Under the pieces are notes generated by a model, which worked only from the letters and a program-made list of their open reading frames with translations, was not told the origin of the DNA and searched no databases. The position numbers and the translations under genes are program-made. Below, one piece after another: positions 20,371-64,000 of a stretch of 64,000 bases of DNA. Position 1 is the first letter of the stretch; the number at the start of each line of letters is the position of its first letter. Source of the DNA: an uncultured Verrucomicrobiota bacterium. GTDB lineage: Bacteria > Verrucomicrobiota > Verrucomicrobiia > Palsa-1439 > CAYGDP01. The stretch covers positions 110,033 to 174,032 of the forward strand of contig CAYGDP010000002.1 of the NCBI GenBank assembly GCA_964348665.1. The letters are read 5' to 3'.

Positions 20371-20444
20371 CGGGGCGTAGCGTAGCTTGGTAGCGCGCTT
20401 GGTTCGGGACCAAGAGGTCGCGGGTTCAAATCCCGCCGCCCCGA
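20371..20444 (+). tRNA. tRNA-Pro (anticodon CGG)
   Basis: Hand-folded cloverleaf: acceptor stem CGGGGCG/CGCCCCG plus discriminator A; D arm GCGT-AGCTTGGTA-GCGC; anticodon stem CTTGG/CCAAG with loop TTCGGGA (U33, anticodon CGG, G37); T arm GCGGG-TTCAAAT-CCCGC. No encoded CCA. Confidence 0.85.
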
Positions 20445-20454
20445 TTTTTTTCAT

Positions 20455-20480
20455 AGGGAGAAGTGGGTCCCCCACTTTTT
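20455..20480 (+). terminator. hairpin plus T-run downstream of tRNA-Pro
   Basis: AAGTGGG-tcc-CCCACTT stem-loop (20461-20477) followed by TTTTT. Confidence 0.4.
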
Positions 20481-20517
20481 CCGTGACAAATCCGTGACAA
20501 ATTTGGTAGTGTCACGG
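20481..20517. promoter_or_regulatory. tandem direct repeats CCGTGACAAAT x2 plus an inverted half-site, candidate integrase arm-type sites
   Basis: 'ccgtgacaaat' at 20481-20491 and again at 20492-20502. An inverted 'gtcacgg' at 20511-20517. Lies between the tRNA 3' end and the integrase start. Confidence 0.35.
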
Positions 20518-20522
20518 GTGTT

Positions 20523-21743
20523 ATGAAGCGTTCCTTTCTTGTCAGCGTTGGTTCCGTTAAAGTCCCTGTTTACGGATTTTCCGGGGGACGGTGGTGCATT
20601 AGTTATTATCAGGAAGGACGGCGACGCCGAGAAACTCGATCTTCCCGTGATGAGGCTCTCCGCCGCGCCAAAGAGGTCGCCGCCGCAATCCACAACCAGA
20701 AAGCTTCTGGGATTGCGCTCACGGGTGCTGACCGTGACGCCTATATGCGCTCGCTGGAAGTGCTCAAACCCTTCGGCGTAAGTCTCCATGAAGCGGTGGA
20801 AACGTATGCGAAGACCAGAGCCAAACTCCAAGCCGTATCGCTCAACGACGTGGTGGATTTTTATCTACGCCACAATCCGACTCGCTTGCCTGCAAAAACC
20901 GTCTCGGAAGTTGCCCAGGAGCTACTGGCCGCCAAGCAACGTGATCACGTAAGCGCCGCCTATCTGAAAGACCTTCGATCACGGCTGCCTCGCATCGGTG
21001 CTGCCTTCGCAATGCCGATCGGGCGAGTGACGCAAGGACAAATCGAGGATTGGCTGCGCTCTTTGCCGAGTTCATTGCGGACACGAAACAATTATCGCAA
21101 CCTCATCGTTATGCTTTGGCGGTTCGCGCGCCAGCGCGGATATCTATTAAGGGATCGGTCCACGGAAGCCGATTCGTTGCCGCGCGCCAAAGACAAAGGA
21201 ACTGAGATCGAGATTTTCCGTCCAAAAGATTTTGCGAAACTGATCTACAAAGCCGATGCGAAATTGGTACCCTTCCTTACCATCGGGGCATTTACGGGTC
21301 TTCGTCACGCCGAGTTGCTTCGCCTTGAATGGGAAGACATTCGTTTTTCTCAGGGGTTTGTCGAAGTAAAAGCGAGTAAAGCAAAGACGGCACAACGGCG
21401 ACTGGTGCCCATCCAATCCAACTTGGCAGCATGGCTCTCACCGTATCGGGAGCGGAAAGGAAAAGTCTGCCCATGGATTCGCGTCGGTCGCACCGTATCA
21501 AAGTTGGCGAAAGATATTGGCATCCGTTGGCCGCAGAATGGTTTGCGGCATTCGTATGCGAGCTATCGCCTTGCTCAATGTCAGGACGCCGCAAAGGTCG
21601 CATTGGAGATGGGGAACACTCCACAGGTAGTTTTCCGTCATTATCGAGAACTGGTCATGCCGCAAGATGCAGCTGCGTGGTGGAGTATTGTCCCCGAGCG
21701 AGCGGCGAATGTGGTATCAATGAGACGTCACCAAATCGGCTAA
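20523..21743 (+). CDS. int: tyrosine-type site-specific integrase
   Basis: C-terminal catalytic motifs 'GLRHAELLRL', 'LRHSYASY', 'VVFRHYRELV' (R..H..R..Y). Begins 79 nt after the tRNA-Pro. Confidence 0.9.
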   Translation: MKRSFLVSVGSVKVPVYGFSGGRWCISYYQEGRRRRETRSSRDEALRRAKEVAAAIHNQKASGIALTGADRDAYMRSLEVLKPFGVSLHEAVETYAKTRAKLQAVSLNDVVDFYLRHNPTRLPAKTVSEVAQELLAAKQRDHVSAAYLKDLRSRLPRIGAAFAMPIGRVTQGQIEDWLRSLPSSLRTRNNYRNLIVMLWRFARQRGYLLRDRSTEADSLPRAKDKGTEIEIFRPKDFAKLIYKADAKLVPFLTIGAFTGLRHAELLRLEWEDIRFSQGFVEVKASKAKTAQRRLVPIQSNLAAWLSPYRERKGKVCPWIRVGRTVSKLAKDIGIRWPQNGLRHSYASYRLAQCQDAAKVALEMGNTPQVVFRHYRELVMPQDAAAWWSIVPERAANVVSMRRHQIG

Positions 21744-21962
21744 TCTCAAAAGGCGCGTGTTTTGAAAAAAGTCTGGCTCGGCTGGATTCGGATTTGAACA
21801 ATACTCATCTGCACGAGGGCAAACCGCTTCCCGCTCGATTGGCAGTCATCGTGAAGTATTTTGCGTGAGGATTTATCTTGTGGCCGGTCTAATTTTCAAG
21901 AACACATTGCCGCATACCGAATGAACGTGATACTTTGAGCGCTCATCGCAGAGAGAATTATC

Positions 21963-22505
21963 GTGACTACCTCGACCAAGGAAGCAGGCGCGTTTCCCAC
22001 TGGGATCCACTGGTTTTGCGTCCATACCCGACCTCGCCAGGAAACGCTGGCCAAGGCCGCGCTGGAAGCCGACGGGATTGCGACCTTCTATCCGAGGTTC
22101 AAGATCAAAAAACGGAGTCGTCATTGGAAAATCTCCTCTCTGTTTCCCAGTTATATTTTCGCCCGTTTCGACGCGGTGGCGCAACTCTCGTGGGTGCGCT
22201 CGGCGCGAGGCGTTTTATACGTGGTAAGTTTCAAAAACTGGCCGGTGGCGGTCAGCAATGAGGTCATCGAAACAATTCGCTCCCGCTGCAAGAACGAGGT
22301 GGTGGATTTGACGGAGGTGGTCAATGAAAACTATCACACACTCCAGTCGGGCGACCGGGTGGAGGTCGAAGACGGGCCGCTCCGGGGAATGCGCGGGATT
22401 TTCCAGAGAAAAACTTCCGATGACGAGCGAGTGGTGATCCTGCTTAAGATTTTGGGATTGTCAGTCGAGGCGGAGTTGCAGCGAGAGGCGGTGGAACGGC
22501 TTTAG
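21963..22505 (+). CDS. specialised NusG-family transcription antiterminator paralog (RfaH/UpxY/LoaP-like)
   Basis: GTG start. N-terminal NGN-like 'IHWFCVHTRPRQETLAKAAL...FYPRF', C-terminal KOW-like 'GDRVEVEDGPLRGMRGIF'. 180 aa, no other transcription genes nearby, immediately upstream of an 18.5-kb gene. Confidence 0.7.
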   Translation: MTTSTKEAGAFPTGIHWFCVHTRPRQETLAKAALEADGIATFYPRFKIKKRSRHWKISSLFPSYIFARFDAVAQLSWVRSARGVLYVVSFKNWPVAVSNEVIETIRSRCKNEVVDLTEVVNENYHTLQSGDRVEVEDGPLRGMRGIFQRKTSDDERVVILLKILGLSVEAELQREAVERL

Positions 22506-22865: not shown

Positions 22866-25800
22866 ATGGAAACGGGTCAGAACAATCGGGATCAAGCGGT
22901 GGCTATTGCGCTGAAGGCGTTCGAGGAGAACGCCTTGCGCGAGGCCGTCGCCGTCTCTACGCCACCGGCAGAAGCGGGGATCACGCTGCGGTCAATGTTC
23001 CGAGGAACAACGACCTTCCGGGCGCTGGCCAGAAAGATCGCGACTCTCCTGCCCCGGGTAGCGCCCCGCCGAGAAAGCAAGCTTTTGCGCAAACTTCGCC
23101 ACTTCCAACGTCAGAAGGCTTGCTTGTCGCCGGCTGAAAACCATCTTCAACATCCTTCCTCGACGACGTCTGTTCCTCCAAGAGCGAATCCTAGCGAACG
23201 ACGTGGTATGCCATCACGTTTCACCGCGCCAATCCCACTGACAAGCCGGCTCAAACACCTCGTCTTGGGGAAATGGGGAACGAAGGACAAATCGCCACGG
23301 CGCAAACGCGAGCATCGGTTTCGTCGTGACTTGCGCTACGACCAGTCATTTGTCGCCGAATCGGCGGAACCGCGGCTGATGGCCGGTAGTTTGGCTGGCC
23401 CCAACATCCTAACCGTGATTGACGGCGTGGAAGGAAACGAGGATTGGACGATGGGACTGCCGGAGATCGTCGCCCTTGGAAATAGCCAAGCCGTCCCGCA
23501 AACCAGCGAAGCTCCCCACGCAGCGTCATCCTCCACTAATCATACCGAACCTATAGCCTCAAATGTAACGCTCCCGGCAAATGCCGAGACGACTGCGCAA
23601 GCGATCCAGAGCCTTCAGGAAACAGGGGAGTTTAACCCAGAAGAAGATATTGGATTGCCGTTTCTTAGCTCCGATTCTACATCTAGCGCTTGGAATCCAC
23701 TGAACCCTGATGTGACGGAGGCGTTGCTGTTCCAACTGGCTGAACTGCAACAGCTATTTGCATCTCGGAACGCCTTGGATACAGTAGCGCCCAAGACCCT
23801 CATTGCGCCTTTGGCTCTCGAACCGACGAGCGCCCAAACTGATTCTCAAATTGACCCGTCTCTATTGGCCGGTGATTCGCAAACATCGAACAGTGAGCCG
23901 ACAACGACCGGTTCCGGGTCAACGCCCCAGACAATTTCTCCCGTAACCAATCCCCAATCCTCTCCGACCGGTGATTCACCCGGAAATCGGGACCCTCCGC
24001 CTGATCCTCCTCCACCGGGATTGATTCGCATGGCTTGCTCCGGCTGGACGCTGGTGGAAAGCGGCGGCTCGGAGAGCGGTCGCGGGAGTTTCACGTCTGA
24101 ATCCGGAAGTCTGGCCTTACGAGAAGGAGATTCGTTCCTGGTCTCCATCCAGCGAGCTTTCACCATTCCGCCCAATCCGGCCACGCTGACCTTCACTCTG
24201 GACGAGCTTACCTTTGATACGACCGATCCTGATTTTATCAATGACGCCTTTGAAGCGGCGTTCCTGGACGCGAGCGGGATTTCGCTAGTCCCCGTTATTG
24301 CGAGCAGCCGCGATTCCTTCTTTAACGCCACCGAAGGCGAGCCAGTTGCGCTCGGTTCAAAGACAACCTTCTCCGACCCAACTGTTACGCTCAATATCTC
24401 TTCCTTGCCAGCGGGCAGCACGGGCATTTTGGCCCTCCGTCTGGTCAATAACGACAGCGACGTCAACACGCTGGCCCGCATCCATTGCAATACCCCGCCT
24501 CAAGTAACGGCCAACGACGGTGCGGCCAACGAAGGACAATCGCTGGAGTTTGTCGGCACGTTTATTGATCCGGACATCGGTGACACCCATACGGCGCTCA
24601 TTTCTTGGGGGGATAACACCACCAGCGAAGGAGTTGTCACCGCAACTCAAGACGGTGGGACGGTGACGGCCAGCCACGTTTATGCCGATAACGGCAACTA
24701 CACCATCACCCTGACCGTTTCTGACAACAATGAGGGAGTCGGTAGCGACTCCGCGACCGCCACGATTGCCAACGTAGCGCCTGCCGTCACCGTCGGTCCG
24801 AACCAAACCCACAAAGACAAGGAACTGGCGTTGGATTTTACCATCGGCACGTTTAGCGATCCGGGCTTCACCAGTCCTACCGCCGGCACCGAGGAGACGT
24901 TCACCGCTCTGATTGATTGGGGTGACGGCACCACGCCAAGTGAAGGAACTCTCACCGTTGTGCAAGGCTCAGAGGGCGTGCTTACCACCGGCACGGTTAC
25001 GGCCAACCACGTTTATCAAGGTGGAGGTGTTTACACGGTAACTCTCACGGTCACCGATGACGACCTTGACTCTGGTTCGGCCAGTTTCCAAATTACGATC
25101 CTGCCCACCAAATTCTTCGTTGTGGATCAGGATCGTCGCTCCACGTTCCGTTATGACCGCGACGGCGGATTTGTCAGCGAGTCTGATCTGGGCCAGTTTG
25201 ATTCCCGCCCCCGTGGCGTCGCCAGCGACAGCACAGGCGATACTCTTTGGGTGATTGACGCCAATAAGACCGTCTATGTTTATACCGGCGAGGGTGCCTT
25301 GCTGGGTTCCTGGCAGGACCCCGGCTTAAACCAACCGCAGGACATCACGACTGACGGCACCGACATCTGGATTATCGACACTCCCGACAACGTTGTTTAC
25401 CGCTACTCCGGCGCCGCCAGCCGTCGTTCAGGTTCGCAAGCTCCTGACGCCAGTTTCCCCTTGGTCGTAGAGGATCGCAATCCCACCGGGCTGGTCACCG
25501 ACGGATCGACGTTTTGGGTGACGGATAATTTCGATCATCTAAACAAAGTTTTCGTGTATGACATGACCGGTCAGCTTCTTGGTTCGTGGCTATTGGACCC
25601 CCTCAATGTTGACCCTAGCGGCATTACCCTCAATCCCAACGGGGGCAGCGACCTCTGGGTGGTGGATCGTCTGCGGAATGCGGTTTTCCACTACGCTGAG
25701 TCGCAAGATGTGCGAAGCGGCTCTCTTCTTGTCACGGATACGTTTGCCCTGGCAAATAACAACCGTCACCCGGAAGGCATCGCCGATCCGGAAGTTTTCT

Positions 25801-28800
25801 GGAACGTGGATAGCGATGGATTTTGGGACGATGCCGCCAATTGGGATACCGGCACGGTTCCCAGCCCCACCGATGATGTCATTATTGATCGGCCCACCGC
25901 AAACCCAACCGTTACTATTCGATTTGGCGCTCAATCAGTCAATAGTGTCACCAGCCATGAAGCTCTTGTGTTGTCGGGCGGCACTTTGAGTGTTGCCGCT
26001 CCTTCCGAAGTTAATAACACCTTTACTTTGAGCGGCGGCGATCTGACTGGCGCAGGTCCATTTACAATTAATAACACCATGGATTGGATTGCAGGCCGCC
26101 TGGTCAGCGGCGGTACACTCGTCATTGCCAACACCGCCACGCTCAATCTCATCAACAGCAATGATAAAGACGTTGTTGGTTCTACGCTCAACAATTTCGG
26201 GACGGCCAACTGGAACACTGGCCGCATCCGCACTGGCTCCGGCTCGCTGATTGCCAACAGCGGGCTTTGGATCGCCCAAGCCAACAATCAGATCTCTAAT
26301 GATTATGGTAATGCGCAATCTACTTTCTCCAATAGCGGCAGCTTCCAACACATCGGTAGTTCTAGCAGCCACATCTTTATTGTATATGATAACAACGGCA
26401 GTACCGATGCCACCAACGGCACGCTGCACTTGCGTGCTGGTGGCACTTCCAGCGGCAGCTTCAATGCTGCCAGCCCCGGTGCTCTCTTCTTTGGCGAAGG
26501 CACTCACATCTTGAACGCCTCCTCCTCGGTCAGCGGGAGCGGCACGGTGGGGATTTTCTCAGGCAGCACCATTGTCAACGGCACGTGGAGCGTCAGTGGC
26601 ATCACTGATTTGCAGGGTGGCACCATTGCCTTTAACACCGCCGCCAGTACTGCCACTGGCATCTTCCGCGGTAGTGATCTAGCCGGCAGCGACAGTCTCA
26701 CCGTCACTGACACGATGGACTGGAGCAGCGGTCGGATCGTCAGCGGCGGCACGCTCATCATCGCCAACACCGCCACGCTCAATCTCATCAACAGCAATGA
26801 TAAGGACGTCGTCGGCTCGACGCTCAACAATTTCGGCGCGGTCAACTGGTTCGTTGGTCGCATCCGCACTGGCTCTGGCTCGCTGATTAGCAACAGCGGG
26901 CTTTGGATCGCCCAAGCCAACAACCAGATTTCTAACGACTACGGCAACGCCCAGTCCACCTTCTCCAACTCCGGCAGCTTCCAACACAGCGGCAGCGGCG
27001 ACAGCCACATCTTCATCGTCTATGACAACAACGGCAGTACTGATGTCACCAGCGGCACTTTGCATTTACGCGGCGGGGGCAACAGCAGCGGCAGTTTCAA
27101 CGCGCCGACCCCGGGCCGACTCCTCTTTGGCGAAGGCACGCACACTTTGAGCGCCAGTTCCTCCATCAGCGGCTCAGGCACGCTTGGCATCTTCAGTGGT
27201 AGCGCCGTTGTCAACGGTTCCTGGACAGTCAGCGGCATCACTGATCTGCAAGGCGGCACGATCAGCTTCAATACGGCGGCTTCTACAGTGACAGGCATCT
27301 TCCGTGGCAGCGATCTGGCTGGCAGCGGCAGCCTGACGGTGAGCAATGCGATGGACTGGAGCAGTGGTCGGGTCGTCAGTGGCGGCACGCTCATCATCGC
27401 CAACACCGCAACGCTCAATCTCATCAACAGCAACGACAAAGACGTCGTCGGTTCGACGCTCAACAATTTTGGGACTGTCAATTGGAATGCTGGCCGCATT
27501 CGCACTGGCTCCGACTCGCTGATTGCAAACAGCGGCCTCTGGATCGCCCAGGCCAATAACCAGATTTCTAACGACTATGGCAACGCTCAGTCCACCTTCT
27601 CCAACTCCGGCAGCTTCCAACACAGCGGCAGCGGTGATAGCCATATCTTCATCGTCTTTGACAACAACGGCAGTACTGATGTCACCAGTGGTACCTTGCA
27701 TTTACGCGGCGGGGGCAACAGTAGCGGCAGTTTCAACGCGCCGACCCCAGGCCGACTCCTCTTCGGCGAAGGCACTCACACCTTTAGCGCTTCCTCCTCG
27801 GTCAGTGGCAGTGGCACGCTTGGCATCTTCAGCGGTAGCGCCATTGTCAACGGTAGTTGGATGGTCAGTGGCATCACTGACCTACAAGGCGGTACAATCG
27901 CCTTTAACACAGCAGCCAGCACCATCACTGGCATCTTTCGTGGCAGCGATCTCACCGGCACTGGTTCTCTGACGGTGAGCAATACGATGGACTGGAGCAG
28001 CGGTCGAATCGTCAGCGGCGGCACGCTCACTATCGCTAACACCGCCACCCTCAGTCTCATCAACAACAATGACAAAGACATCGTCGGTTCAACGCTGGCC
28101 AATTTCGGGACGGTCAACTGGCTCGCTGGCCGCATCCGTACTGGTTCTGGTGCGCTGATTAGCAATAGCGGTCTCTGGATCGCCCAAGCCAACAATCAAA
28201 TCTCTAACGATTACGGCAATGCCCAATCCACTTTCTCCAACTCTGGCGGCTTCCAACATAGCGGCAGCGGCGACAGCCACATCTTCATCGTCTATGACAA
28301 CAACGGCTCTACCGATGTCCCCAGCGGCACGCTGCACCTGCGCGGTGGCGGCAATAGCAGTGGTAGTTTCAGCACCACCTCACCCAGCGCGCTCTTCTTT
28401 GGCGAAGGCACCCACACTCTAACCGCCACTTCCTCGGTCAGCGGATCAGGCACAGTGGGCATCTTTAGCGGCAGCGCCATTGTCAACGGTTCTTGGGTGG
28501 TCAGCGGCACGACAGATTTACAGGGCGGCACCATCGCCTTTAATACAGCCGCTTCCACGGTGACAGGAATCTTCCGTGGTAGCGATCTCACCGGCTCCGA
28601 CTCTCTCACCGTCACAGATACGATGGACTGGCAGCGAGGTCGAGTAGTCAGCGGCGGCACGCTTGTCATTGCCAACACCGCCACGCTCAATCTCATCAAC
28701 AGCAATGACAAAGACATCGTCGGTTCGACGCTCAGCAATTTCGGGACTGTCAATTGGAACGCTGGCCGCATCCGCACTGGTTCTGGTGCGCTGATTGCCA

Positions 28801-50506: not shown

Positions 50507-50620
50507 CAAGGCTCTGGTTCGAAAAAAACTCATACCGCTCTGCCTTCCCGCATTGGATGACAGCCCAAGGCGATAAATCCCTCTTATGTTTGTTGAGATT
50601 ACTGGAAAGGGCATGGTAAT

Positions 50621-53182: not shown

Positions 53183-53201
53183 TCCTAGGAGTACAAAAAC
53201 G

Positions 53202-53954: not shown

Positions 53955-53976
53955 ACAAAAACCACATCTTTAGTGG

Positions 53977-54660: not shown

Positions 54661-54700
54661 GGGTCTTGAATCGAACGCTTCTCGCTGATACAACGCCAGT

Positions 54701-57152: not shown

Positions 57153-57171
57153 GGCAAAAAACCGTAAGAAA

Positions 57172-57203
57172 CGCTGCTCTCTTAGCGGAGAGCGGCTTTT
57201 TTT
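57172..57203 (+). terminator. rho-independent terminator after the RadC-like gene
   Basis: GC-rich hairpin 'gctgctct...agagcggc' followed by TTTTTTT. Confidence 0.5.
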
Positions 57204-57232
57204 GTTTAACCCAAAAAAGAAAGGAGAACTAT

Positions 57233-57736
57233 ATGGGAGCTGATCTTTACATTGTGGAGATTAGCCTGCCAATCCAAGAGTGGTATGAGCCGCTCTTTGA
57301 TAAGGCGGTAAGGCAAAGAAATCTCTGGCCGAAAGGTTCAGAGAGGGAGCAGAAAGCGCACAAGGACGTGGTGAGATATTACAACCTGATGCACGCAGCG
57401 GGATATTTCAGCGATCCTTATGACGCGAGCAGTTTGCTCAAACATCTCGGACTCTCTTGGTGGTCGGACGTCCTGCCCCTGTGCGACCAAGACCGTCGTC
57501 TTGAAGACGAAAGCTTGAGGAAGTTCCGCGCAATGGTAGGGCGCAATCCCGTGCAGTATCCGACCGAGGAAGAGTTCAAGAAAGAACTGGTAGCTCTGGA
57601 AGACGGCAGGAAAAGTCTGGATGCATGGTGCAGATACTTCGCAGCGAAGCACATGACGCTGATGTTGTTTCTGGACCAGGCACTTTTGCTGGATGCCGCC
57701 GTGCATTGCTCCTTTGGAATTCCTGACGGAAGATAG
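57233..57736 (+). CDS. hypothetical protein, 'MGADLYI' family paralog A
   Basis: RBS 'aaaggaga'. 167 aa. Shares 'MGADLYI..L.....YKPLF(D/E)KAV.QR...P.......K.......Y..L....GYF.D.Y...LLK.LGLSWW..V.PL' with the gene at 58514. Confidence 0.55.
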   Translation: MGADLYIVEISLPIQEWYEPLFDKAVRQRNLWPKGSEREQKAHKDVVRYYNLMHAAGYFSDPYDASSLLKHLGLSWWSDVLPLCDQDRRLEDESLRKFRAMVGRNPVQYPTEEEFKKELVALEDGRKSLDAWCRYFAAKHMTLMLFLDQALLLDAAVHCSFGIPDGR

Positions 57737-57850
57737 GGCAACGCTGGGAAGCGACCTGAGCGCCGGCAGGACTGTCACGCCAATGCGGCAAGACAACCTG
57801 CTCCTCGTCTTTCACGGCGGGGAGCAGGTCTGTTTTTCCGTCGCTGGCAT

Positions 57851-57936
57851 CGGAATAAACCCCGGAATTAACCCGGAATAAAGCCAGAATAAACCCGGAA
57901 TTAAGTTTATTCCGGTCTATTCCGAGGAATAAATCC
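57851..57936. repeat. iteron-like array of eight GGAATWAA units (six direct, two inverted) at 10-11 bp phasing
   Basis: 'cGGAATAAAccccGGAATTAAcccGGAATAAAgccaGAATAAAcccGGAATTAAgTTTATTCCggtctATTCCgaGGAATAAAtcc'. Confidence 0.55.
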
Positions 57937-58038
57937 TTCTGTTTGGCACCGCGCTTCCTTACGGGGATGCGACTGCTGGGCAGAATCGCTCGGTATCAGC
58001 CGCGGATCGCAGCGGCAATTCAAGAAGGAGAAACAACC

Positions 58039-58443
58039 ATGAATACAGTAGAGAAGTTGCAGTGTACCCAAGACCCGCTCTCGGTCTATGAAGAAACCGC
58101 GAGAGCTTATGCGGATTGTACAATCGGCGGAAAGGAAGGGGGAAAGTTGCGGAATCTGAATTTCCGCGCTTCCGCTCCTTTGCGCCTGCTCGAATGGATG
58201 GAGTGCATGAAACGCGCTACTCCTGAAGGATACAACCAGTTCAACGCCGTACGAGTCGGACGGGTTCTGGCGCAACTCGGCGTTAGTCTGGATGCGGTGT
58301 TCATTCCCGCTCGGGAGTACAGCGTTTGCGTTTATGTACGGGCCGATGGATGGCTCTTGCAACATATCCTCAACAACGCTGCCGCTCTGCAGGCCGATGA
58401 AGCCGATATCGTGGACGGCGAGTTGCGTTTGTGGTGGGATTAA
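58039..58443 (+). CDS. hypothetical protein
   Basis: ATG at 58039 with RBS 'aaggag'. 134 aa, no motif. Confidence 0.45.
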   Translation: MNTVEKLQCTQDPLSVYEETARAYADCTIGGKEGGKLRNLNFRASAPLRLLEWMECMKRATPEGYNQFNAVRVGRVLAQLGVSLDAVFIPAREYSVCVYVRADGWLLQHILNNAAALQADEADIVDGELRLWWD

Positions 58444-58513
58444 ATGGAGGGTCGCGCAATGCGGCCTCCTCCCACTTTTAATCATCAACAATCGAAAGAA
58501 AGGAGACGTGTGT

Positions 58514-59002
58514 ATGGGTGCAGACCTCTATATCCATCAGCTCTACGATCCGACGAAAGAAAGGTATAAGCCGCTTTTTGAAAAAGCGGTAATGCAGAGG
58601 GATTCATTTCCACGAGATTCGAAGGAATGGAAAGTGGCCCAACGGAAAGTCTGGAAGTACTTCGACCTGATGAATTCCAAGGGCTACTTCCGCGATTCGT
58701 ATAGCACGGCAAACGTGCTTCGGACGCTGGGTTTATCGTGGTGGCGAAATGTGATCCCCCTGCTTAACAAAAAGAACGAACTGGAAGGCAAGAACCTGAA
58801 AAAGTTCCGCAAGATGGTAGCCAATGCAAAACAACGTCTGCCAACGAAAGCGGAGCTTCAGAAAGATGGAGCGCGTGGAAAACGATCGGGAGCAAACCGT
58901 TTGAAGATGTGGCGCAAGTATTACATCAGGAAACGAGCGCGACTCATCGCGTTTCTCGACGAGGCGATCAAACGGAATCACTCGATCCACTGCTCGCTCT
59001 GA
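58514..59002 (+). CDS. hypothetical protein, 'MGADLYI' family paralog B
   Basis: ATG at 58514 with RBS 'aaaggagacg'. Colinear with paralog A over the first 100 aa or so. Basic C-terminal tail. Confidence 0.55.
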   Translation: MGADLYIHQLYDPTKERYKPLFEKAVMQRDSFPRDSKEWKVAQRKVWKYFDLMNSKGYFRDSYSTANVLRTLGLSWWRNVIPLLNKKNELEGKNLKKFRKMVANAKQRLPTKAELQKDGARGKRSGANRLKMWRKYYIRKRARLIAFLDEAIKRNHSIHCSL

Positions 59003-59125
59003 CTGAAAAAACTGGCGTGCGGCTTCGCTTACACGCGCGGCCGCATGACAGAACAGAAACGGGTTTTGTGGAATCCCCCGCAAACCCGAAAAAACCAACA
59101 AACCCCAAAAGAAAGGAACATCAAC

Positions 59126-60202
59126 ATGAAGAATGAAAGTATCACGTTGTATTACCGTGAAGGTTCATCGGACAAAGTTTATCAAGCGGCCATTGAAGAA
59201 AAGAACGGCGGGTTCGTCGTTAACTTCGCCTTTGGCCGTCGGGGCAGCACGTTACAGACGGGGACGAAAACAGCATCACCTGTAAGCTTCGAGGAAGCAA
59301 AGCGGGTCTATGACAAACTGGTAGCTTCCAAGGTCGGAAAGGGTTACACACCGGGCGCAGACGGGACTCCTTACGCGCAAACCGAAGAAGCAGGACGCGT
59401 AAGCGGGTTTCTGCCGCAGTTGTGTAATCCAGTCAGAGAGGACGAGGTTGCGTGCATCCTCCCTGACAAAAGCTATTGGATGGAAGAAAAGTTCGACGGA
59501 AAGCGCATGTTGCTTCGCAAAGAAGGACAGAACGTTGTCGGCATCAATCGGAAGGGTCTGGTTGTTGCATTGCCGCAGCCGTTGATTATGGCAGCGCAAA
59601 AGTATGACGAGAGCTTCCTGCTCGATGGCGAATGCGTCGGAGAGACGCTTCACGTCTTCGACTTGCTCCTCCTGAACGGCGAGAAAATGGTAGGTCTCGC
59701 GATGTGTGAACGGCGACACACATTGGAGGAGCTGCTGCAGATTGACGATCCGCACTTGTTGCTCGTTGAGACAGAGAAATCGGTGGCGGGAAAGGCTGAG
59801 AAGTTTACCTACTTCAAAGCCATGCGAAAAGAAGGCGTCGTGTTCAAGCGATACAACGCCCCTTACGCTCCAGGACGGCCTGCCAATGGTAGCGGATGGT
59901 TCAAGCACAAATTCGTCACAAGTGGATCGTTCATAGTGAGCCGTGTGAACGCCGATCGCCGCAGCGTCGGTCTTGAAGTATTCGAGGAGAGAAAACGCAT
60001 CGGAGTCGGCAATGTCACGATACCCGTTAACGCCGAAGTGCCAATAGTAGGCGACATCATCGAGGTACGTTACCTCTACGCCTATCGTGGTGGGAGTCTG
60101 TTTCAACCCGTGTATCTGGGACCGCGAGATGATCTCTCGTTGCTCGATTGCACGGTGCGAGAGTTGAAGTATCGCGCAGAAGATAGTGAAGAAGAGGCAT
60201 AA
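59126..60202 (+). CDS. WGR-domain / ATP-dependent DNA ligase fusion protein
   Basis: ATG at 59126 with RBS 'aaaggaa'. N-terminal WGR-like domain ('ITLYYREGSSDKVYQA...FAFGRRGSTLQTG...EEAKRVYDKLVASKVGKGY'). Ligase motifs: I 'EEKFDGKR', III 'LLDGE', IV 'EGVVFKR', V 'GWFKHKF', VI 'PVYLGPRDD'. Confidence 0.85.
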   Translation: MKNESITLYYREGSSDKVYQAAIEEKNGGFVVNFAFGRRGSTLQTGTKTASPVSFEEAKRVYDKLVASKVGKGYTPGADGTPYAQTEEAGRVSGFLPQLCNPVREDEVACILPDKSYWMEEKFDGKRMLLRKEGQNVVGINRKGLVVALPQPLIMAAQKYDESFLLDGECVGETLHVFDLLLLNGEKMVGLAMCERRHTLEELLQIDDPHLLLVETEKSVAGKAEKFTYFKAMRKEGVVFKRYNAPYAPGRPANGSGWFKHKFVTSGSFIVSRVNADRRSVGLEVFEERKRIGVGNVTIPVNAEVPIVGDIIEVRYLYAYRGGSLFQPVYLGPRDDLSLLDCTVRELKYRAEDSEEEA

Positions 60203-60301
60203 GCCTTTTTCTTCTGGGATTAGGTCGAGACGCCGTGCCCTGCGGCGTCCGATCTACTTCTCATCTAAAAAATCAGAAATCCAAAACAGAAAGGAAAATG
60301 T

Positions 60302-60697
60302 ATGTGCATCAATTGGAAAATAATTCACAAGTACACTCGTGCTGATGCAATCAGAGACGGAGTGCTTGTGGACTTGCGACAGGGAGAGTTGGCAGAGGTC
60401 GTTGAGAATGCCGGGATCAAAGTTCCAGTGGCAATGACGCGTACTGCATTCGAGCGTTATGTTTCACTAACGCAAGCAGCACAGGAAGCGGGCAACGACA
60501 TAAAGGGTCGGCTCTGGGACATCCTTTGGATGTATCGGTGCGCCGCGCAGAAGAATCCTCATGAAAGCGTGATGTGCTTTTCATTCTACTGCGTCGTGGA
60601 TCAGCCTAAGCCGAAAAAGTGCGAGATCAAGGTAATAGTCGGTCCAGGAGACGATCCTGCGCCCGTATTGACGTTCCTGCTACCCAAAGAAGATTGA
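60302..60697 (+). CDS. hypothetical protein
   Basis: 131 aa, in the same operon between the ligase and ArdC-like genes. Confidence 0.4.
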   Translation: MCINWKIIHKYTRADAIRDGVLVDLRQGELAEVVENAGIKVPVAMTRTAFERYVSLTQAAQEAGNDIKGRLWDILWMYRCAAQKNPHESVMCFSFYCVVDQPKPKKCEIKVIVGPGDDPAPVLTFLLPKED

Positions 60698-60777
60698 GCG
60701 CTAGGCGGCTTAGCTTTCATGCAAGGCCCGGCGGTCATTCAAAATTCAGAAAAAAATCAAACCGAAAGGAAAATACC

Positions 60778-61668
60778 ATGAACAAAGTGTATGAAATTGT
60801 CACGCAACGTATCATCAATGCGTTGGAACAAGGAGAAATCCCGTGGCGACCGCGATTCAGCGTTGACAAAGGCTTGCCACGCAACGCCGTCTCGAAAAAG
60901 CCCTATCGGGGCGTTAATCTCCTGTTGCTCTGGCTTGCTAGATATCAGGACAATCGCTTCCTGACGTTTAAGCAAGCAAAGGAAATGGGCGGGGAAGTAA
61001 AGAAGGGAGAGCACGGTTGGCCGGTAATCTTTTGGAAACTCCAAGAGATAGACGAAACCATCCCAAGCACGGGAGAGTTAAAGCAAGTTCCTGTGTTGAG
61101 ATACTACACCGTGTTCAATGTATCGCAGTGCAGTGGATTGGGCTTGCCAAAGATTATTGAGGTGAGTGAGTTCACGCCTATTGAAATGGGCGAGCGCATT
61201 CTCCTCGGCTATCCCAATCCGCCCTGCGTCTTCTATGGAAAAGGCTGCGGTTGTTATCGGCCGTCCGATGACATTGTGGAGATGCCGCGCCCTGAAACGT
61301 TCCAGAAAAATGAGCACTACTACTCCGTGCTTTTCCACGAGCTAGTGCATAGCACAGGACACGCGAAGCGGCTAAATCGCGAGGAAATAGCCACGCCAAA
61401 GAAATTCGGCAGCGAGCCGTACTCACGCGAGGAACTCGTCGCCGAACTTGGTTCTGCGTTTCTCTGTGCGGAGTGCGGAATCGAGCAAGACACGTTGGAG
61501 GATCATGCCGCCTACATTCAAGGTTGGCTCAAGCGACTCAAAGATGATTCGCGTTTGATCGTGTTGGCTGCTGCCGCTGCACAGCGCGCCGCTGATCACA
61601 TTCTTGCGCGGACCTTTGAGTCAGTGGAAAGCTCCGCTGAAACTGCCGCGCCAATGCTCGTATCGTAA
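60778..61668 (+). CDS. ardC: ArdC-like antirestriction protein (N-terminal ssDNA-binding DUF1738-like + C-terminal zincin metallopeptidase)
   Basis: ATG at 60778 with RBS 'aaaggaaaa'. 'IPWRPRFS...PYRGVNLLLLW' N-domain and HExxH 'FHELVHSTGH' C-domain. Confidence 0.8.
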   Translation: MNKVYEIVTQRIINALEQGEIPWRPRFSVDKGLPRNAVSKKPYRGVNLLLLWLARYQDNRFLTFKQAKEMGGEVKKGEHGWPVIFWKLQEIDETIPSTGELKQVPVLRYYTVFNVSQCSGLGLPKIIEVSEFTPIEMGERILLGYPNPPCVFYGKGCGCYRPSDDIVEMPRPETFQKNEHYYSVLFHELVHSTGHAKRLNREEIATPKKFGSEPYSREELVAELGSAFLCAECGIEQDTLEDHAAYIQGWLKRLKDDSRLIVLAAAAAQRAADHILARTFESVESSAETAAPMLVS

Positions 61669-61717: not shown

Positions 61718-61777
61718 CTGATGAGGTCGATACCGTACCGTGACTATCTTAACAGGCAGTGCTTGTGACGCACGCCA

Positions 61778-61984
61778 TTATCGTTTGCCATTTTTCCGGT
61801 GTGCAATTGAGTTTCGTTGTTTTGTGTCATAGACCGAAGAGTTGATGTCGTAAACCCATCGGGGCCATGTTTCGACTTCGTGCTGCACGCGCATGAGTTG
61901 ACGATGCAGGCTGCCTTTTTCTAGCCGAACCATCTGTCTCCCATCTTTGCCAGTCTGAACACTATTGTATTCTCGCATTGACAT
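61778..61984 (-). CDS. small hypothetical protein, downstream partner of the deaminase gene
   Basis: 68-aa ORF 17 nt after the deaminase stop. Confidence 0.3.
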   Translation of the reverse strand: MSMREYNSVQTGKDGRQMVRLEKGSLHRQLMRVQHEVETWPRWVYDINSSVYDTKQRNSIAHRKNGKR

Positions 61985-62001
61985 ATGTCATCACCTCCTT
62001 T

Positions 62002-63645
62002 TCATTTTTTTCTCCGTGCCGGTCTTTTACCGGAACGAACCAAAGCAAGCCGCTGTTTTTTAAGCGCCATGTGAAATTCGTAATCTTCGCTTGCTTCGCG
62101 CAAGATGTAAGATTGATGCGCTAAACGATCAGGATACCTCGGAAGTGCCTCTTGCTTGCGCTTAGCCCAAGTAATGATTTCGCCTTGCTCTTTTCTCGGA
62201 AGCATTGGGAATAGGTCGAAGTATCGCCGAGAGGAAATACCTGAGAATTGCTTGAAGTGAACAAATCTCGAAAGAGGTTCACTGTCATCGACATCAACTT
62301 TTATCGAGTCAGAATGGTGCTCTTGTGCAAAACTTTTTGGATAAGGTTCCGTATAGATCACCTGACGGATTCCAGCCGCAACGATATGCCTGGCACAAAC
62401 GTGGCAGGGAAAGGTCGTGGTGTATAACGTAGCTCCGTCTACTCGAACTCCGCGCCGTGCCGCATCCATTAACGCGGCCATCTCCGCATGCACCGTACGT
62501 GCAAACTCCCCTACCTGCATAAGTGTTCCATCCCCAATTAAACTTAGAATTTCTTGTTCTTTATTCTTCTTAAATGTTTTGGCATTTAAATCCAAGATTC
62601 CTTTGTGGAGCAGTCTCTTTTTATAAAACTTTTCTAACAACTCAAAGAGCCCGGTTTTTTTAACAGTAGTGCCAACATCTGCCCCCAGACGGAAATCACG
62701 GGCATCGCCTTCGTCGCCATTCCAATATTGACCTCCACCGGCTTTGGGTACTTCGTTTGTTCCAACTGATATTATTGATCCATCAGGATCCACAATGGCT
62801 GCCCCAACTTGGCGTGATAAATCTGCAGAACGGAACGCAGCAGACTGGGCAAAAAACATTCCATACTCCTGCCTCGATGGAGAATGGCTCGGATGACGGA
62901 ACAGAAGTTGAACGTATCTTTGAACCGAGATGCGCATTTCCTCAGGATCTCCTACATCTACGAATAGGTCAGCTTTAGAAAATGTGTCGCGCATATTCTG
63001 GCCGAAATCAGCGTATTCTTCTTTTTCATCGCGTTGAATTAACGATTGGGCGATCGGGCGGGACCGATCAGATCTCGGATCCCGTTTTGAATCTGCGATC
63101 CGTTTCGCGAGTCTTAGAACCCTGGACTCCCGTGGTGAGTACGCTGAGATCAAATGAAAGGCATCGCAGTATACCTGTCGGAGGAGTCTTGCCTCATCCG
63201 GATGCTTCAAAGATCTAAGTAGGAATGCAAGATTCGGTACGGGCTTATTCTCGTATTTCCAAAAATCCCTTGGGCCCTTCGGTTGAGGCGGAGGAATTGG
63301 CCTCTTAAATCTTTTCCTCCAGTAAGAGTATCGAATGTCGCGTATCTGATTTATGGCAACAAGTGCCAAGGCATCTCCGCGCTTAAGGGTTTTCCTTAGT
63401 TTATTGCCTGCGTCCATGTGTAAAGTGATCCTTGTATCCTCAGGACTAAGCGGGAGATTCTTCCACTTCCGGAATTGATGCAATAATTCAGCGAGATGTA
63501 TCTCCTGGGTCTTATATCCTACTTCGGAGAGCGAATCTGTAATGGCTTGAGAAACCTCCGTGAGGCCGGCACCTAACGGACCGGCTAAAGCGAAGAATAA
63601 CTCTGGTCTCTCTGACGTGCTGATTTGTTTTTGTTTGAATTCCAT
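62002..63645 (-). CDS. nucleotide-kinase-like + CMP/dCMP-deaminase-domain protein, resembling anti-phage dCTP deaminase (DCD) defence proteins
   Basis: ATG at 63645 with RBS 'gaaagga'. N-terminal P-loop-like 'FFALAGPLGAGLTEV'. C-terminal zinc-deaminase 'HAEMAALMDAARRG...TFPCHVCARHIVAAGIRQVIY' (H-A-E ... P-C-x-x-C). Confidence 0.6.
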   Translation of the reverse strand: MEFKQKQISTSERPELFFALAGPLGAGLTEVSQAITDSLSEVGYKTQEIHLAELLHQFRKWKNLPLSPEDTRITLHMDAGNKLRKTLKRGDALALVAINQIRDIRYSYWRKRFKRPIPPPQPKGPRDFWKYENKPVPNLAFLLRSLKHPDEARLLRQVYCDAFHLISAYSPRESRVLRLAKRIADSKRDPRSDRSRPIAQSLIQRDEKEEYADFGQNMRDTFSKADLFVDVGDPEEMRISVQRYVQLLFRHPSHSPSRQEYGMFFAQSAAFRSADLSRQVGAAIVDPDGSIISVGTNEVPKAGGGQYWNGDEGDARDFRLGADVGTTVKKTGLFELLEKFYKKRLLHKGILDLNAKTFKKNKEQEILSLIGDGTLMQVGEFARTVHAEMAALMDAARRGVRVDGATLYTTTFPCHVCARHIVAAGIRQVIYTEPYPKSFAQEHHSDSIKVDVDDSEPLSRFVHFKQFSGISSRRYFDLFPMLPRKEQGEIITWAKRKQEALPRYPDRLAHQSYILREASEDYEFHMALKKQRLALVRSGKRPARRKK

Positions 63646-63750
63646 TGTGGTCCTTTCTAAGGGAGCTTTTTGTAATTGTCCTCCACATATCCTGCGGACT
63701 TGCAACTCTCAACGCTCTCCATGAGATTTTCGCTCATGATAAAATTCTCT

Positions 63751-64000
63751 TTAGGCAAAGACCCCTCTTATTCTTGCGCACGGCTCGACTTCAGATGGGG
63801 AAAAAATATAAGCGCTGACAGAGTCAAAATAGCCACATCTAAATCGATTCAATGGCAGCCCAACTCGCTTTGAAAGCATCAGAGCGTAAAGGAATACCTG
63901 AGCATGAGCGTTAGTTTCTTCGGATGCCGATGGTTTGTAATCCCAGATGCCTATCTTCAAATCTTCTTCCAAGCGAAGAATATCAATATGTCCCGTAAGA
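63751..64000 (-). CDS. PD-(D/E)xK (RecB-family-like) nuclease domain protein, C-terminal fragment (5' end outside window)
   Basis: Frame is open to the window edge. '...LTGHIDILRLEEDLKIGIWDYKP...' resembles nuclease motifs II-III ('D...E.K', '(I/V)DYK'). Confidence 0.4.
   Translation of the reverse strand, partial: LTGHIDILRLEEDLKIGIWDYKPSASEETNAHAQVFLYALMLSKRVGLPLNRFRCGYFDSVSAYIFSPSEVEPCARIRGVFA

What the first reader, a model, noticed from the sequence alone, without database searches (positions are those of the whole stretch)
20371..64000. Composite genomic island of at least 43 kb at tRNA-Pro(CGG), with two integrases and a stepwise GC decline
The integrase starts 79 nt after the tRNA. 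From there to the window end the cargo is non-housekeeping: toxin/immunity, plasmid-type genes, defence genes. GC falls from backbone-like in the int/NusG/giant gene to markedly lower from about 40.6 kb onward.

A second integrase (47808-48950) suggests nested or tandem elements. I did not find a direct repeat of the tRNA 3' end in the window, so attR probably lies beyond 64000.
Basis: partly seen in the sequence, partly recalled or inferred. Interest (0 to 1): 0.6.

Follow-up and report, generated by a model that had tools for sequence, protein, structure and literature searches.

The report
Mosaic genomic island at tRNA-Pro gene
A stretch of foreign DNA at least 63 kb long sits next to a proline tRNA gene in an uncultured bacterium, carrying a giant toxin gene, plasmid-type genes and anti-phage defence genes; this is an ordinary kind of mobile island, although its far end was not reached.

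Summary
tRNA-Pro(CGG) lies at 20371-20444, and an intact tyrosine integrase (int1) starts 78 nt later. A second intact integrase (int2) lies at 47808-48950. GC falls from 0.56-0.61 to 0.47-0.52. No copy of the tRNA 3' end occurs in the window.

I extended the sequence through the source contig (ENA ERZ27247820 k141_690336). The atypical DNA continues to at least window-equivalent 83,532, still without attR.

int1 belongs to a family that targets tRNA and tmRNA genes. All six relatives with upstream DNA sit 74-122 nt downstream of such a gene, and they share an element-side CGTGACAA repeat.

Cargo:
- an RfaH/UpxY-like NusG paralog;
- a 6,177-aa adhesin-Rhs toxin, with two ankyrin proteins and an orphan rhs fragment;
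- the int2 block;
- a block of genes typical of the leading region of conjugative plasmids (SSB, RadC, ligase, DUF6573, ArdC);
- defence genes (dCTP deaminase, PDC-M57, SIR2, m5C-MTase/Vsr).

"Composite" is plausible but unproven. No att repeat separates the two integrases, so tandem insertion at the same site is not supported. No empty site and no conjugation genes were found.

Verdict: a new member of a known kind, of modest interest.

The parts
20371..20444 (+). tRNA-Pro(CGG), intact; forms the left boundary (attL) of the island
   Evidence: ARAGORN; Rfam RF00005, 68.9 bits
20417..20448 (+). Predicted att core (inferred): the last 28 nt of the tRNA plus TTTT
   Evidence: Logan k=31 contigs L083 and L084 end at 20446. 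The int1 contig L087 starts at 20419. That is the pattern of a 32-nt segment with two entries and two exits in the assembly graph. Another tRNA-Pro gene sharing this 3' end would give the same pattern.
20481..20502 (+). Tandem CCGTGACAAAT x2 just upstream of int1; probably an integrase arm-type or operator site (inferred)
   Evidence: The motif CGTGACAA..CGTGACAA is conserved in relatives that sit at tRNA-Gly, tRNA-Pro(TGG) and one of the two tmRNA loci. The 63%-identity relative has TGTAGCA instead (alignment A2).
20523..21743 (+). int1, tyrosine integrase (406 aa)
   Evidence: PF00589; phrog_1, 2e-27; XerC/XerD-like chains in the PDB; catalytic motifs present; relatives of 63-77% identity next to tRNA/tmRNA genes
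21963..22505 (+). Specialised NusG paralog (180 aa), probably an antiterminator for the giant gene (inferred)
   Evidence: PF02357. Best NCBIfam matches are RfaH (97.9 bits, cut-off 144.5) and UpxY (81.6 bits, cut-off 100). These outscore housekeeping NusG (41 bits), but all are below cut-off.
22866..41399 (+). Giant ORF (6,177 aa). It contains PKD, Calx-beta, He_PIG x12, Big_9 x11 and Cadherin_5 domains, then DUF6531 and RHS repeats, then the DPSGL cleavage motif, then a 265-aa C-terminal toxin domain (40602-41396).
   Evidence: Pfam. Five or six 636-nt tandem repeats at 26034-29540. Cleavage motif located. Match to the Rhs core plug in PDB chains. The C-terminal domain has no Pfam hit and only 32 weak homologs.
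41602..42776 (+). Two overlapping ankyrin-repeat genes (178 and 213 aa); candidate immunity proteins (inferred from position)
   Evidence: Pfam Ank families, down to 1e-28; gene calls
42831..43202 (+). Orphan rhs-type fragment (123-aa ORF). Positions 42904-43199 duplicate the giant-gene segment 36370-36683.
   Evidence: Repeat families D9 and D12, 76-88% nucleotide identity; tblastn 63% aa identity, 1e-30, the only such remnant up to 83.5 kb; Logan contig L100 breaks at both copies
43404..47734 (.). Block of mostly unknown genes: 102, 64 and 422 aa (minus strand), a 441-aa alpha/beta-hydrolase-like protein (plus strand), and a 344-aa DUF7309/DUF6930 protein (minus strand)
   Evidence: Pfam; no PADLOC hits for the 422-aa and 441-aa proteins and no PHROG hits for the 422-aa and 344-aa proteins
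47808..48950 (-). int2, second tyrosine recombinase (380 aa)
   Evidence: PF00589, 6e-12; XerA-like, 1.7e-24; phrog_1; catalytic motifs present; always in this same context in 5 contigs
48988..49048 (.). Inverted repeat with 23-nt arms, 38 nt upstream of the int2 start codon; candidate operator or core site (inferred)
   Evidence: the repeat finder pair I1, 87% complementary
49940..55552 (.). Genes for a plasmid pRiA4b ORF3-like protein, a HerA/DUF87-type ATPase (51355-52728, minus strand), a PadR/EarA-like protein, and two SAM-methyltransferase-fold proteins
   Evidence: Pfam; weak PADLOC hits to HerA, mad8 and mad2
55982..61668 (+). Co-directional block of plasmid establishment (leading-region) genes: SSB, RadC, WGR-ATP-ligase, DUF6573, ArdC
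   Evidence: Pfam; NCBIfam and PHROG ligase hits; ArdC homologs in 3,158 plasmids, 1,760 of them conjugative
62002..63645 (-). Anti-phage dCTP deaminase. It is the first gene of a defence cluster that continues past the window end to about 75 kb.
   Evidence: PADLOC dCTPase, 1.3e-148. Downstream genes in L001 and L090: PD-(D/E)XK, nucleoside deoxyribosyltransferase, SIR2, PDC-M57 A+B fusion, QueC-like, Vsr, response regulator, HATPase_c_3, m5C methyltransferase.

Best explanation
This is a large, mosaic integrative genomic island. It is at least 63 kb long, running from window 20,445 to beyond window-equivalent 83,532. It was inserted by the int1 tyrosine integrase into the 3' end of tRNA-Pro(CGG) in an uncultured bacterium.

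Shown:
- The tRNA is intact.
- int1 follows it by 78 nt on the same strand, the same geometry as in every relative that has upstream DNA.
- DNA conserved across the family (a T-run, then two CGTGACAA repeats) begins directly after the tRNA, so the junction lies at the tRNA 3' end.

Inferred:
- Integration is by attP x attB recombination across a core of about 32 bp (20417-20448). This regenerates the tRNA at attL and leaves a partial copy at an attR that was not reached.
- The interior was assembled from several modules:
  (i) int1, a NusG-type antiterminator and an 18.5-kb adhesin-Rhs toxin gene. Its C-terminal toxin domain would be released at the DPSGL motif, and the two ankyrin proteins are the likely immunity proteins.
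  (ii) A block carrying int2, next to a truncated rhs fragment.
  (iii) Plasmid/ICE-type establishment genes (SSB, RadC, ligase, DUF6573, ArdC, methyltransferases).
  (iv) A defence cluster (dCTP deaminase, SIR2, PDC-M57, QueC-like, m5C-MTase/HATPase/Vsr).
- Whether int2 still moves anything, and whether the island can transfer itself, is unknown.
For: - tRNA and integrases.
- int1 relatives lie 74-122 nt after tRNA-Gly (three loci), tRNA-Pro(TGG) (one) or tmRNA (two): 6 of 6 loci with upstream DNA.
- The motif between the RNA gene and int is conserved across different target genes.
- Cargo next to int differs between relatives; NusG is absent from them.
- Composition departs from the backbone from 25 kb to 83.5 kb.
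- Logan contigs break on both sides of 20417-20448.
- In another sample, the identical tRNA plus island (100% over 11.4 kb) is joined to a different left flank. A homolog of that flank lies beside housekeeping genes and a tRNA-Pro gene in another MAG.
- Rhs anatomy and the orphan fragment.
- Plasmid-type and defence genes.
- A close homolog of the Dcm-HATPase pair sits in an unrelated chromosomal context, so that cassette has moved independently of the rest.
Against: - No attR or direct repeat was found within 63 kb of the tRNA.
- No empty site was seen. Every long assembly that carries these genes has the same order. The GTDB species representatives contain no syntenic relative.
- The first 5 kb after the tRNA is compositionally like the backbone.
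- Internal repeats distort the composition signal inside the giant gene.
- The Logan break could be caused by another tRNA-Pro gene with the same 3' end. L093 tRNA-Pro(TGG) shares 29-31 nt of it.
- The alternative left flank is only 239 nt at a contig tip and could be an assembly chimera.
- No relaxase, T4SS or excisionase was identified.
Confidence: 0.7

Rival explanations
1. Two independent elements lie side by side. The first is an int1 element carrying the NusG paralog, the Rhs toxin and the ankyrin genes (20.4 to about 43.2 kb). The second is an int2-bearing plasmid/ICE-like element carrying the establishment and defence genes (43.2 kb to beyond 83 kb). The second inserted into, or next to, a second rhs gene of the first.
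For: - Both integrases are intact.
- A truncated rhs fragment ends at 43,199-43,202, directly before the int2 block.
- GC is lower from about 41 kb onward.
- The second part contains plasmid-type genes.
- Logan contig ERR3094296_6658 (54.5 kb) would span about 43.5-98 kb if it is collinear with the window.
Against: - No direct repeats of 13 nt or more bracket any candidate second element within 83.5 kb.
- No copy of the tRNA 3' end lies between the integrases.
- The remainder of the interrupted rhs gene was not found up to 83.5 kb.
- int2 lies 4.3 kb inside the proposed boundary.
- All five contigs that carry int2 show the same context.
- The Logan break at 43,490 falls inside an ORF and has no explanatory feature.
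Confidence: 0.35
2. This is an old, fixed, variable chromosomal region. int1 is a relic, and the genes are now stably inherited and no longer mobile.
For: - No attR was found within 63 kb.
- No empty site was seen in any assembly.
- The int1/NusG/5' giant-gene region has backbone-like composition.
- No excisionase, relaxase or T4SS was seen.
Against: - int1 is full length with its catalytic motifs and is 75-77% identical to relatives at other tRNA and tmRNA genes.
- The upstream repeat motif is intact.
- A graph branch lies exactly at the tRNA 3' end.
- An identical island appears with a second left flank.
Confidence: 0.2
3. The contig is an assembly chimera. The 74-nt tRNA identity joins a chromosome to DNA from another replicon or organism.
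For: - Composition changes after the tRNA.
- One assembly has a different left flank.
- Short-k contigs break at the tRNA.
Against: - The same backbone-tRNA-int1 join occurs in the 246,234-bp ENA contig, and the same proteins are on record on a 247,832-bp NCBI contig.
- MEGAHIT's final k of 141 exceeds the length of the tRNA.
- An integrase 78 nt after a tRNA is the native geometry of this integrase family.
Confidence: 0.05

Closest known systems
tRNA/tmRNA-integrated genomic islands with tyrosine integrases (P4-type pathogenicity/fitness islands; sublocation scheme of Williams 2002, cited from my own knowledge)
   Same: The integrase gene lies immediately 3' of an intact tRNA gene on the same strand. 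Cargo is variable, composition is atypical, and close integrase relatives sit at other tRNA and tmRNA genes.
   Different: The attR repeat and an empty site were not demonstrated. The host is an uncultured lineage with no close sequenced relative.
Integrative conjugative elements (for example the ICEclc / PAPI-1 type at tRNA genes) and the leading regions of conjugative plasmids (PMC11541004; ArdC: PMC7213743)
   Same: The insertion is at a tRNA gene. A co-directional block encodes SSB, RadC, ArdC, orphan methyltransferases and DUF6573, as in plasmid leading regions. ArdC homologs occur mostly on conjugative plasmids.
   Different: No relaxase, coupling protein or T4SS was found in the 63 kb examined. 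No oriT was identified.
Rhs/YD-repeat polymorphic toxin loci with downstream immunity genes and orphan modules
   Same: DUF6531, RHS repeats, the core plug with the DPxGL cleavage motif, a variable C-terminal domain of lower GC, small genes immediately downstream, and a displaced rhs fragment.
   Different: - The toxin is fused to about 4,500 aa of Ig-like/cadherin-like adhesin repeats.
- No PAAR, VgrG or T6SS genes lie nearby.
- The orphan fragment copies the region before the RHS core, not the end of the core.
- The C-terminal domain belongs to a rare family absent from Pfam.
- The closest full-length relatives are only about 30% identical.
Specialised NusG paralogs (RfaH, UpxY, LoaP; PMC7819879, PMC7593976)
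   Same: A full-length match from the NGN domain to the C-terminus. The gene lies directly upstream of a very long, horizontally acquired transcription unit.
   Different: It scores below the curated cut-off of every named subfamily. No ops-like recruitment element was identified. A giant Rhs homolog in Reinekea has no such neighbour.
Defence islands
   Same: Defence genes cluster together: dCTP deaminase, PDC-M57, SIR2, QueC-like and an m5C-MTase/Vsr restriction-type module, all on a mobile element.
   Different: Nothing unusual. Several members match only weakly: SIR2 to ThsA at 1e-7, and HerA, mad8 and mad2 at 1e-6 to 1e-9.

Membership tests
tRNA-integrated genomic island | Intact tRNA (or tmRNA) gene at one boundary | tested here: met
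   tRNA-Pro(CGG) at 20371-20444
tRNA-integrated genomic island | Adjacent site-specific integrase of a family that targets tRNA genes | tested here: met
   int1 matches PF00589 and phrog_1 and keeps its catalytic motifs. In 6 of 6 relatives with upstream DNA, the integrase lies 74-122 nt after a tRNA or tmRNA gene.
tRNA-integrated genomic island | Direct repeat of the tRNA 3' end at the far boundary (attR) | tested here: inconclusive
   Absent up to window-equivalent 83,532. The contig continues for 64.6 kb that could not be fetched. The k=31 contig ends imply that a second copy of 20417-20448 exists somewhere in the sample.
tRNA-integrated genomic island | Composition differs from the flanking chromosome | tested here: met
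   GC 0.47-0.52 against 0.56. Tetranucleotide r is 0.47-0.78 against 0.81-0.94 for backbone controls, from 25 kb onward. The first 5 kb is backbone-like.
tRNA-integrated genomic island | Absent from the same site in related genomes (empty attB) | tested here: inconclusive
   There is no syntenic relative among 185,579 GTDB species representatives. All long assemblies carry the island. One assembly has a different left flank.
Integrative conjugative element | Relaxase, coupling protein and a T4SS (or an FtsK-type translocase) | tested here: not met
   None among the proteins scanned with Pfam, PADLOC, NCBIfam or PHROGs, or among the precomputed Pfam marks on called genes, from 20.4 to 83.5 kb. 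Only a HerA/DUF87-type ATPase is present. The unseen 64.6 kb is untested.
Integrative conjugative element | Integrase plus establishment / leading-region genes | tested here: met
   int1, int2, SSB, RadC, ArdC, DUF6573 and methyltransferases
Rhs polymorphic toxin | RHS/YD repeat shell with the C-terminal PxxxxDPxGL autoproteolysis motif | tested here: met
   RHS_repeat, 3.8e-92 over 8 stretches, plus DUF6531. The sequence ...NTHLFRDPSGL ends at window 40601. The plug region matches Rhs and teneurin chains in the PDB.
Rhs polymorphic toxin | Variable C-terminal toxin domain followed by a cognate immunity gene | tested here: inconclusive
   The 265-aa C-terminal domain has no Pfam or PDB match and only 32 weak homologs. 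The single-sequence AF2 model was unusable (pLDDT 32.7). Two ankyrin genes follow, but immunity was not tested.
RfaH / UpxY / LoaP subfamilies of NusG | Score at or above the curated NCBIfam cut-off | tested here: not met
   RfaH 97.9 bits against a cut-off of 144.5; UpxY 81.6 against 100; LoaP 41.5 against 125; NusG 41.2 against 135.7. It is a NusG-family protein (PF02357, 54.7 bits against 22.2) but belongs to no named subfamily.
Anti-phage dCTP deaminase | Full-length match to the PADLOC dCTPase model, with a cytidine/dCMP deaminase domain | tested here: met
   PDLC02373, 1.3e-148 over residues 7-525; PF00383, 6e-19

The most novel reading that the evidence does not exclude
The island is currently mobile and has recently entered two different chromosomal contexts. 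The identical tRNA plus island, 100% over 11.4 kb, is joined to two different left flanks in sister samples. On this reading it moves, as one unit, an 18.5-kb adhesin-Rhs killing gene with its own dedicated NusG-type antiterminator and a rare, unclassified toxin domain. That would make it a self-contained, horizontally transferable giant-gene expression cassette in an uncultured lineage.
Probability: 0.2. Interest if true: 0.45.

Novelty: new member of a known kind. Interest (0 to 1): 0.3.

Why it matters
The island shows how a poorly known, uncultured lineage acquires competition and defence functions: contact-dependent killing, anti-phage defence and plasmid establishment genes. It uses the same tRNA-targeting integrase mechanism known from model bacteria.

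Two details could be reused:
- a compact integrase family whose close relatives (75-77% identity) target tRNA-Gly, tRNA-Pro and tmRNA, and share a conserved CGTGACAA repeat;
- a NusG paralog placed immediately before a 6,177-codon gene, which is a testable case of element-encoded antitermination for a giant gene.

Neither changes current understanding.

Tried and rejected
- **Empty-site search.** I used the NagB-like flank gene against GTDB genomes. It gave 80 loci with a best identity of 76% (Armatimonadota and Chloroflexota MAGs). Only one of the 39 loci checked has a nearby tRNA-Pro, and it is on the opposite strand. The gene is too widely exchanged to be useful.
- **Walking the contig.** This reached 73.6 kb and then 83.5 kb. 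The last homolog search used a concatenated query (M48 peptidase, a partial ORF and the Rhs C-terminus). It returned only distant Rhs proteins and no self-hits, so the walk ended.
- **Alternative contexts.** Look-ups of int2, the ankyrin protein and the 102-aa ORF found only the same gene order.
- **Boundaries of a second element.** A search for direct repeats found nothing of 16 nt or more between 41-50 kb and 50-83.5 kb.
- **L086 flank as the island's right end (circular junction).** Rejected. Its 56-aa protein is on record on that one contig only. Its homolog lies among der, plsY and gpsA in another MAG.
- **int2 in viral contigs.** No relatives found.
- **NusG paralog as a general partner of giant Rhs genes.** It is absent next to the Reinekea homolog and next to the int1 relatives. 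No literature link was found.
- **Toxin identity.** No Pfam hit and no PDB match beyond the core plug. The single-sequence AlphaFold model had pLDDT 32.7 and is unusable, so no fold search was run.
- **Other RNA genes.** Rfam found none in the window or in L090.

Full report
**Observation**

ARAGORN finds one tRNA in the window, tRNA-Pro(CGG), at 20370-20445. Rfam places it at 20371-20444 with 68.9 bits. An ORF at 20523-21743 on the same strand matches PF00589 and phrog_1 and keeps the R...HxxR...Y motifs of tyrosine recombinases. It starts 78 nt after the last tRNA base. A second recombinase gene lies at 47808-48950 on the minus strand and is also intact by motif.

GC values are as follows:
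- backbone, 1-20.3 kb: 0.559
- int1 and NusG paralog: 0.532
- 5' 13.8 kb of the giant gene: 0.590
- RHS module plus C-terminal toxin: 0.527
- ankyrin genes plus orphan fragment: 0.473
- 43.2-64 kb: about 0.50

Leave-one-out tetranucleotide correlation is 0.81-0.94 within the backbone. After the tRNA it is 0.83 for the first 5 kb and 0.47-0.78 for every later 5-kb piece. No copy of the tRNA 3' end occurs elsewhere in the window.

**Source and extension**

Exact-protein look-ups place the window on ENA ERZ27247820 contig k141_690336, 246,234 bp long. Window position w corresponds to record position 148,127 - w. The same proteins are also on record on a 247,832-bp NCBI contig.

Two walking steps gave sequence up to window-equivalent 83,532; the overlap with the window is identical. 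Beyond 64 kb the genes are:
- a PD-(D/E)XK protein, a nucleoside deoxyribosyltransferase, SIR2, a PDC-M57 A+B fusion and a QueC-like protein;
- Vsr, a response regulator, an HATPase_c_3 protein and an m5C methyltransferase;
- MauJ, an RHH protein, a 1,241-aa FG-GAP/choice-of-anchor-D protein and a 741-aa M48 peptidase.

GC stays at 0.45-0.53. No fragment of the tRNA 3' end appears, even at 14-20 nt with 1-2 mismatches. The atypical region is therefore at least 63 kb long, and attR lies further out or has decayed.

**Is int1 an island integrase?**

A scan of JGI metagenomes found seven relatives of int1 at 63-77% identity. Six of them have upstream DNA. In all six, the integrase lies 74-122 nt downstream of a tRNA or tmRNA gene and on the same strand: tRNA-Gly(TCC) three times, tRNA-Pro(TGG) once, tmRNA twice.

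I aligned the segments between the RNA gene and the integrase start. Sequence shared across these different target genes begins right after the RNA gene. It consists of a T-run followed by two CGTGACAA repeats about 11 nt apart, just before the start codon (window 20481-20502). The repeats are clear in the five closer loci. The 63%-identity relative has TGTAGCA in their place.

That shared sequence is element DNA, so the left junction lies at the tRNA 3' end. The genes after the integrase differ between relatives, and the NusG paralog is not among them. Variable cargo is what one expects of islands.

**Evidence from assemblies**

Two Logan (k=31) contigs that carry the backbone end at window 20446. 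The Logan contig that carries int1 starts at 20419. In a de Bruijn graph this pattern fits a 32-nt segment (20417-20448: the last 28 nt of the tRNA plus TTTT) with two entries and two exits. An attL/attR pair would produce exactly that. Another tRNA-Pro gene with the same 3' end would also produce it, and L093 tRNA-Pro(TGG) shares 29-31 nt of it.

In sample ERZ27247830, a 117,669-bp contig matches the window at 100% from tRNA nucleotide 1 for 11.4 kb, but it has a different 239-nt left flank that encodes a 56-aa membrane protein. That protein is on record on this contig only. Its 86%-identical homolog lies next to der, plsY, gpsA and toxin-antitoxin genes, and is followed by tRNA-Pro fragments, in an NCBI MAG. 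The flank is therefore chromosomal and is not the island's other end. It may be a second insertion context, a rearrangement, or a low-k chimera through the tRNA. I could not decide between these.

No assembly shows an empty site, and none shows either half of the island alone.

**Cargo**

*Module 1.* A 180-aa NusG-family protein matches PF02357. Its best NCBIfam matches are RfaH and UpxY, both below cut-off. It lies 360 nt upstream of a 6,177-aa ORF.

That ORF encodes PKD, Calx-beta, twelve He_PIG, eleven Big_9 and Cadherin_5 domains, with five or six 636-nt tandem repeats. These are followed by DUF6531 and RHS repeats, and the core ends in ...FRDPSGL. The region around the cleavage site matches the plug of solved Rhs and teneurin structures.

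The 265-aa domain after the cleavage site has no Pfam or PDB match. It has only 32 weak homologs among 1.84 billion representative proteins, mostly at the C-terminal end of the matched protein. A single-sequence AlphaFold model was unusable.

Two ankyrin-repeat genes follow. After them comes a 123-aa ORF whose residues copy giant-protein residues 4503-4607 at 63% identity. The Logan contig breaks at 36,650 and 43,152 are explained by this repeat.

The GC drop inside the giant gene starts at the DUF6531/RHS boundary, immediately after the duplicated segment. That fits module exchange by recombination, or amino-acid composition effects, better than an element boundary.

*Module 2 (43.4-49 kb).* This holds unknown genes, an alpha/beta-hydrolase-like protein, a DUF7309/DUF6930 protein and int2. 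An inverted repeat with 23-nt arms lies 38 nt upstream of int2.

*Module 3 (49.9-61.7 kb).* This holds a pRiA4b-ORF3-like protein, a HerA/DUF87 ATPase, a PadR/EarA-like protein and two methyltransferase-fold proteins. A co-directional block follows: SSB, RadC, a WGR-ATP-ligase, DUF6573 and ArdC. ArdC homologs occur on 3,158 PLSDB plasmids, 1,760 of them conjugative. The block resembles the leading regions of plasmids (PMC11541004, PMC7213743).

*Module 4 (62 to about 75 kb).* This is a defence cluster headed by a dCTP deaminase (PADLOC, 1.3e-148). It includes PDC-M57, SIR2, a QueC-like protein and an m5C-MTase/HATPase/Vsr set. An 85%-identical copy of the HATPase, again with an adjacent m5C methyltransferase gene, sits in a different chromosomal context elsewhere, so that cassette has moved independently of the rest of the island.

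**Composite or not**

In favour:
- there are two intact recombinases;
- a truncated rhs fragment abuts the int2 block;
- GC is lower, and the gene repertoire is plasmid-like, to the right.

Against a tandem array at the same att site:
- no tRNA-derived repeat lies between the two integrases;
- no direct repeat of 16 nt or more brackets any candidate second element within 83.5 kb;
- the rest of the rhs fragment is not seen.

A mosaic interior is clear. A discrete second element is plausible (about 0.35) but unproven. No relaxase or T4SS was found in the 63 kb, so the island cannot be called an ICE on present evidence.

**Mechanism**

Shown: an intact tRNA, a family-typical integrase geometry, and conserved element-side DNA starting at the tRNA end.

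Inferred:
- int1 recombined an attP carrying the tRNA 3' end with the chromosomal tRNA-Pro(CGG) gene. This restored the tRNA at attL.
- The CGTGACAA repeats are arm-type or operator sites.
- The NusG paralog keeps RNA polymerase processive across the 18.5-kb gene, as RfaH, UpxY and LoaP do for long acquired operons (PMC7819879, PMC7593976).
- The Rhs shell releases its C-terminal toxin after cleavage at DPSGL, and the ankyrin proteins protect the producing cell.
- The defence genes protect the host, and the SSB/ArdC block dates from a conjugative ancestor.

**Verdict**

This is a genuine, large, mosaic island at a tRNA gene. It is a new member of a well-known kind, found in an uncultured bacterium whose phylum is unresolved. 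The flanking genes carry PSCyt/PSD1 and N_methyl domains, and the best homologs of one flanking gene are in Armatimonadota MAGs. Interest is modest.

Noticed in passing
L088 5826-9100 (NCBI MAG GCA_964373055.1, contig CAYJTM010000031.1): Several tRNA-Pro scars are interleaved with toxin-antitoxin modules. There is a CGG-type 5' fragment at 5834-5859 and a GGG-type 5' fragment at about 7243-7284. A full tRNA-Pro(GGG) lies at 8931-9005, with a repeat of its 3' end about 80 nt downstream. This looks like a hot spot of serial small insertions at tRNA-Pro.
   Followed up: partly
window 40602-41396: The 265-aa Rhs C-terminal domain after the DPSGL motif has no Pfam or PDB match. It has only 32 weak homologs (best E 2e-10) among 1.84 billion representative proteins, mostly at the C-terminal end of proteins of 108-2,119 aa. 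It is a rare, unclassified polymorphic-toxin domain.
   Followed up: partly
window 36370-36683 and 42904-43196: The segment just upstream of the DUF6531/RHS module is duplicated after the ankyrin genes at 76-88% identity. The GC drop inside the giant gene begins right after the first copy. This may be a recombination handle for swapping the whole RHS-toxin-immunity module.
   Followed up: partly
window 26034-29540: Five or six tandem copies of a 636-nt (212-aa) repeat at 72-87% identity lie inside the giant gene. They distort k-mer composition and break short-k assemblies.
   Followed up: no
window 48988-49048: An inverted repeat with 23-nt arms (87% complementary, 15-nt spacer) lies 38 nt upstream of the int2 start codon. 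It may be an operator or a recombinase core site.
   Followed up: no
window 49515-49551 and 50544-50580: Direct repeats of 37 nt (89% identity) bracket the pRiA4b-ORF3-like gene. This may be a small inserted cassette.
   Followed up: no
window 59126-60202: A WGR domain is fused to an ATP-dependent DNA ligase domain (358 aa). The gene lies inside the block of co-directional SSB, RadC, DUF6573 and ArdC genes. This is an unusual member of a leading-region-like gene set.
   Followed up: no
window 1-3000: This region has strong strand asymmetry (GC skew +0.22, AT skew +0.31) and lower GC (0.51-0.53). It covers an 831-aa ORF (488-2983) with no NCBIfam match. This 5-kb piece is also the least backbone-like control (r = 0.81).
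   Followed up: no
L103 6693-12259 (JGI Ga0395667_0001416): An 85%-identical copy of the island's HATPase_c_3 protein, again with an adjacent m5C methyltransferase gene, sits beside an Eco29kI-type restriction-modification system. The context is otherwise chromosomal (RNase E/G, IGPD, an ABC transporter). The cassette therefore moves independently of the island.
   Followed up: partly
L086 1-239 (ENA ERZ27247830 k141_161423): A different left flank, containing a 56-aa membrane ORF, is joined to nucleotide 1 of the identical tRNA-Pro(CGG) plus island. It could be a second insertion context, a rearrangement or an assembly chimera; this is unresolved.
   Followed up: partly
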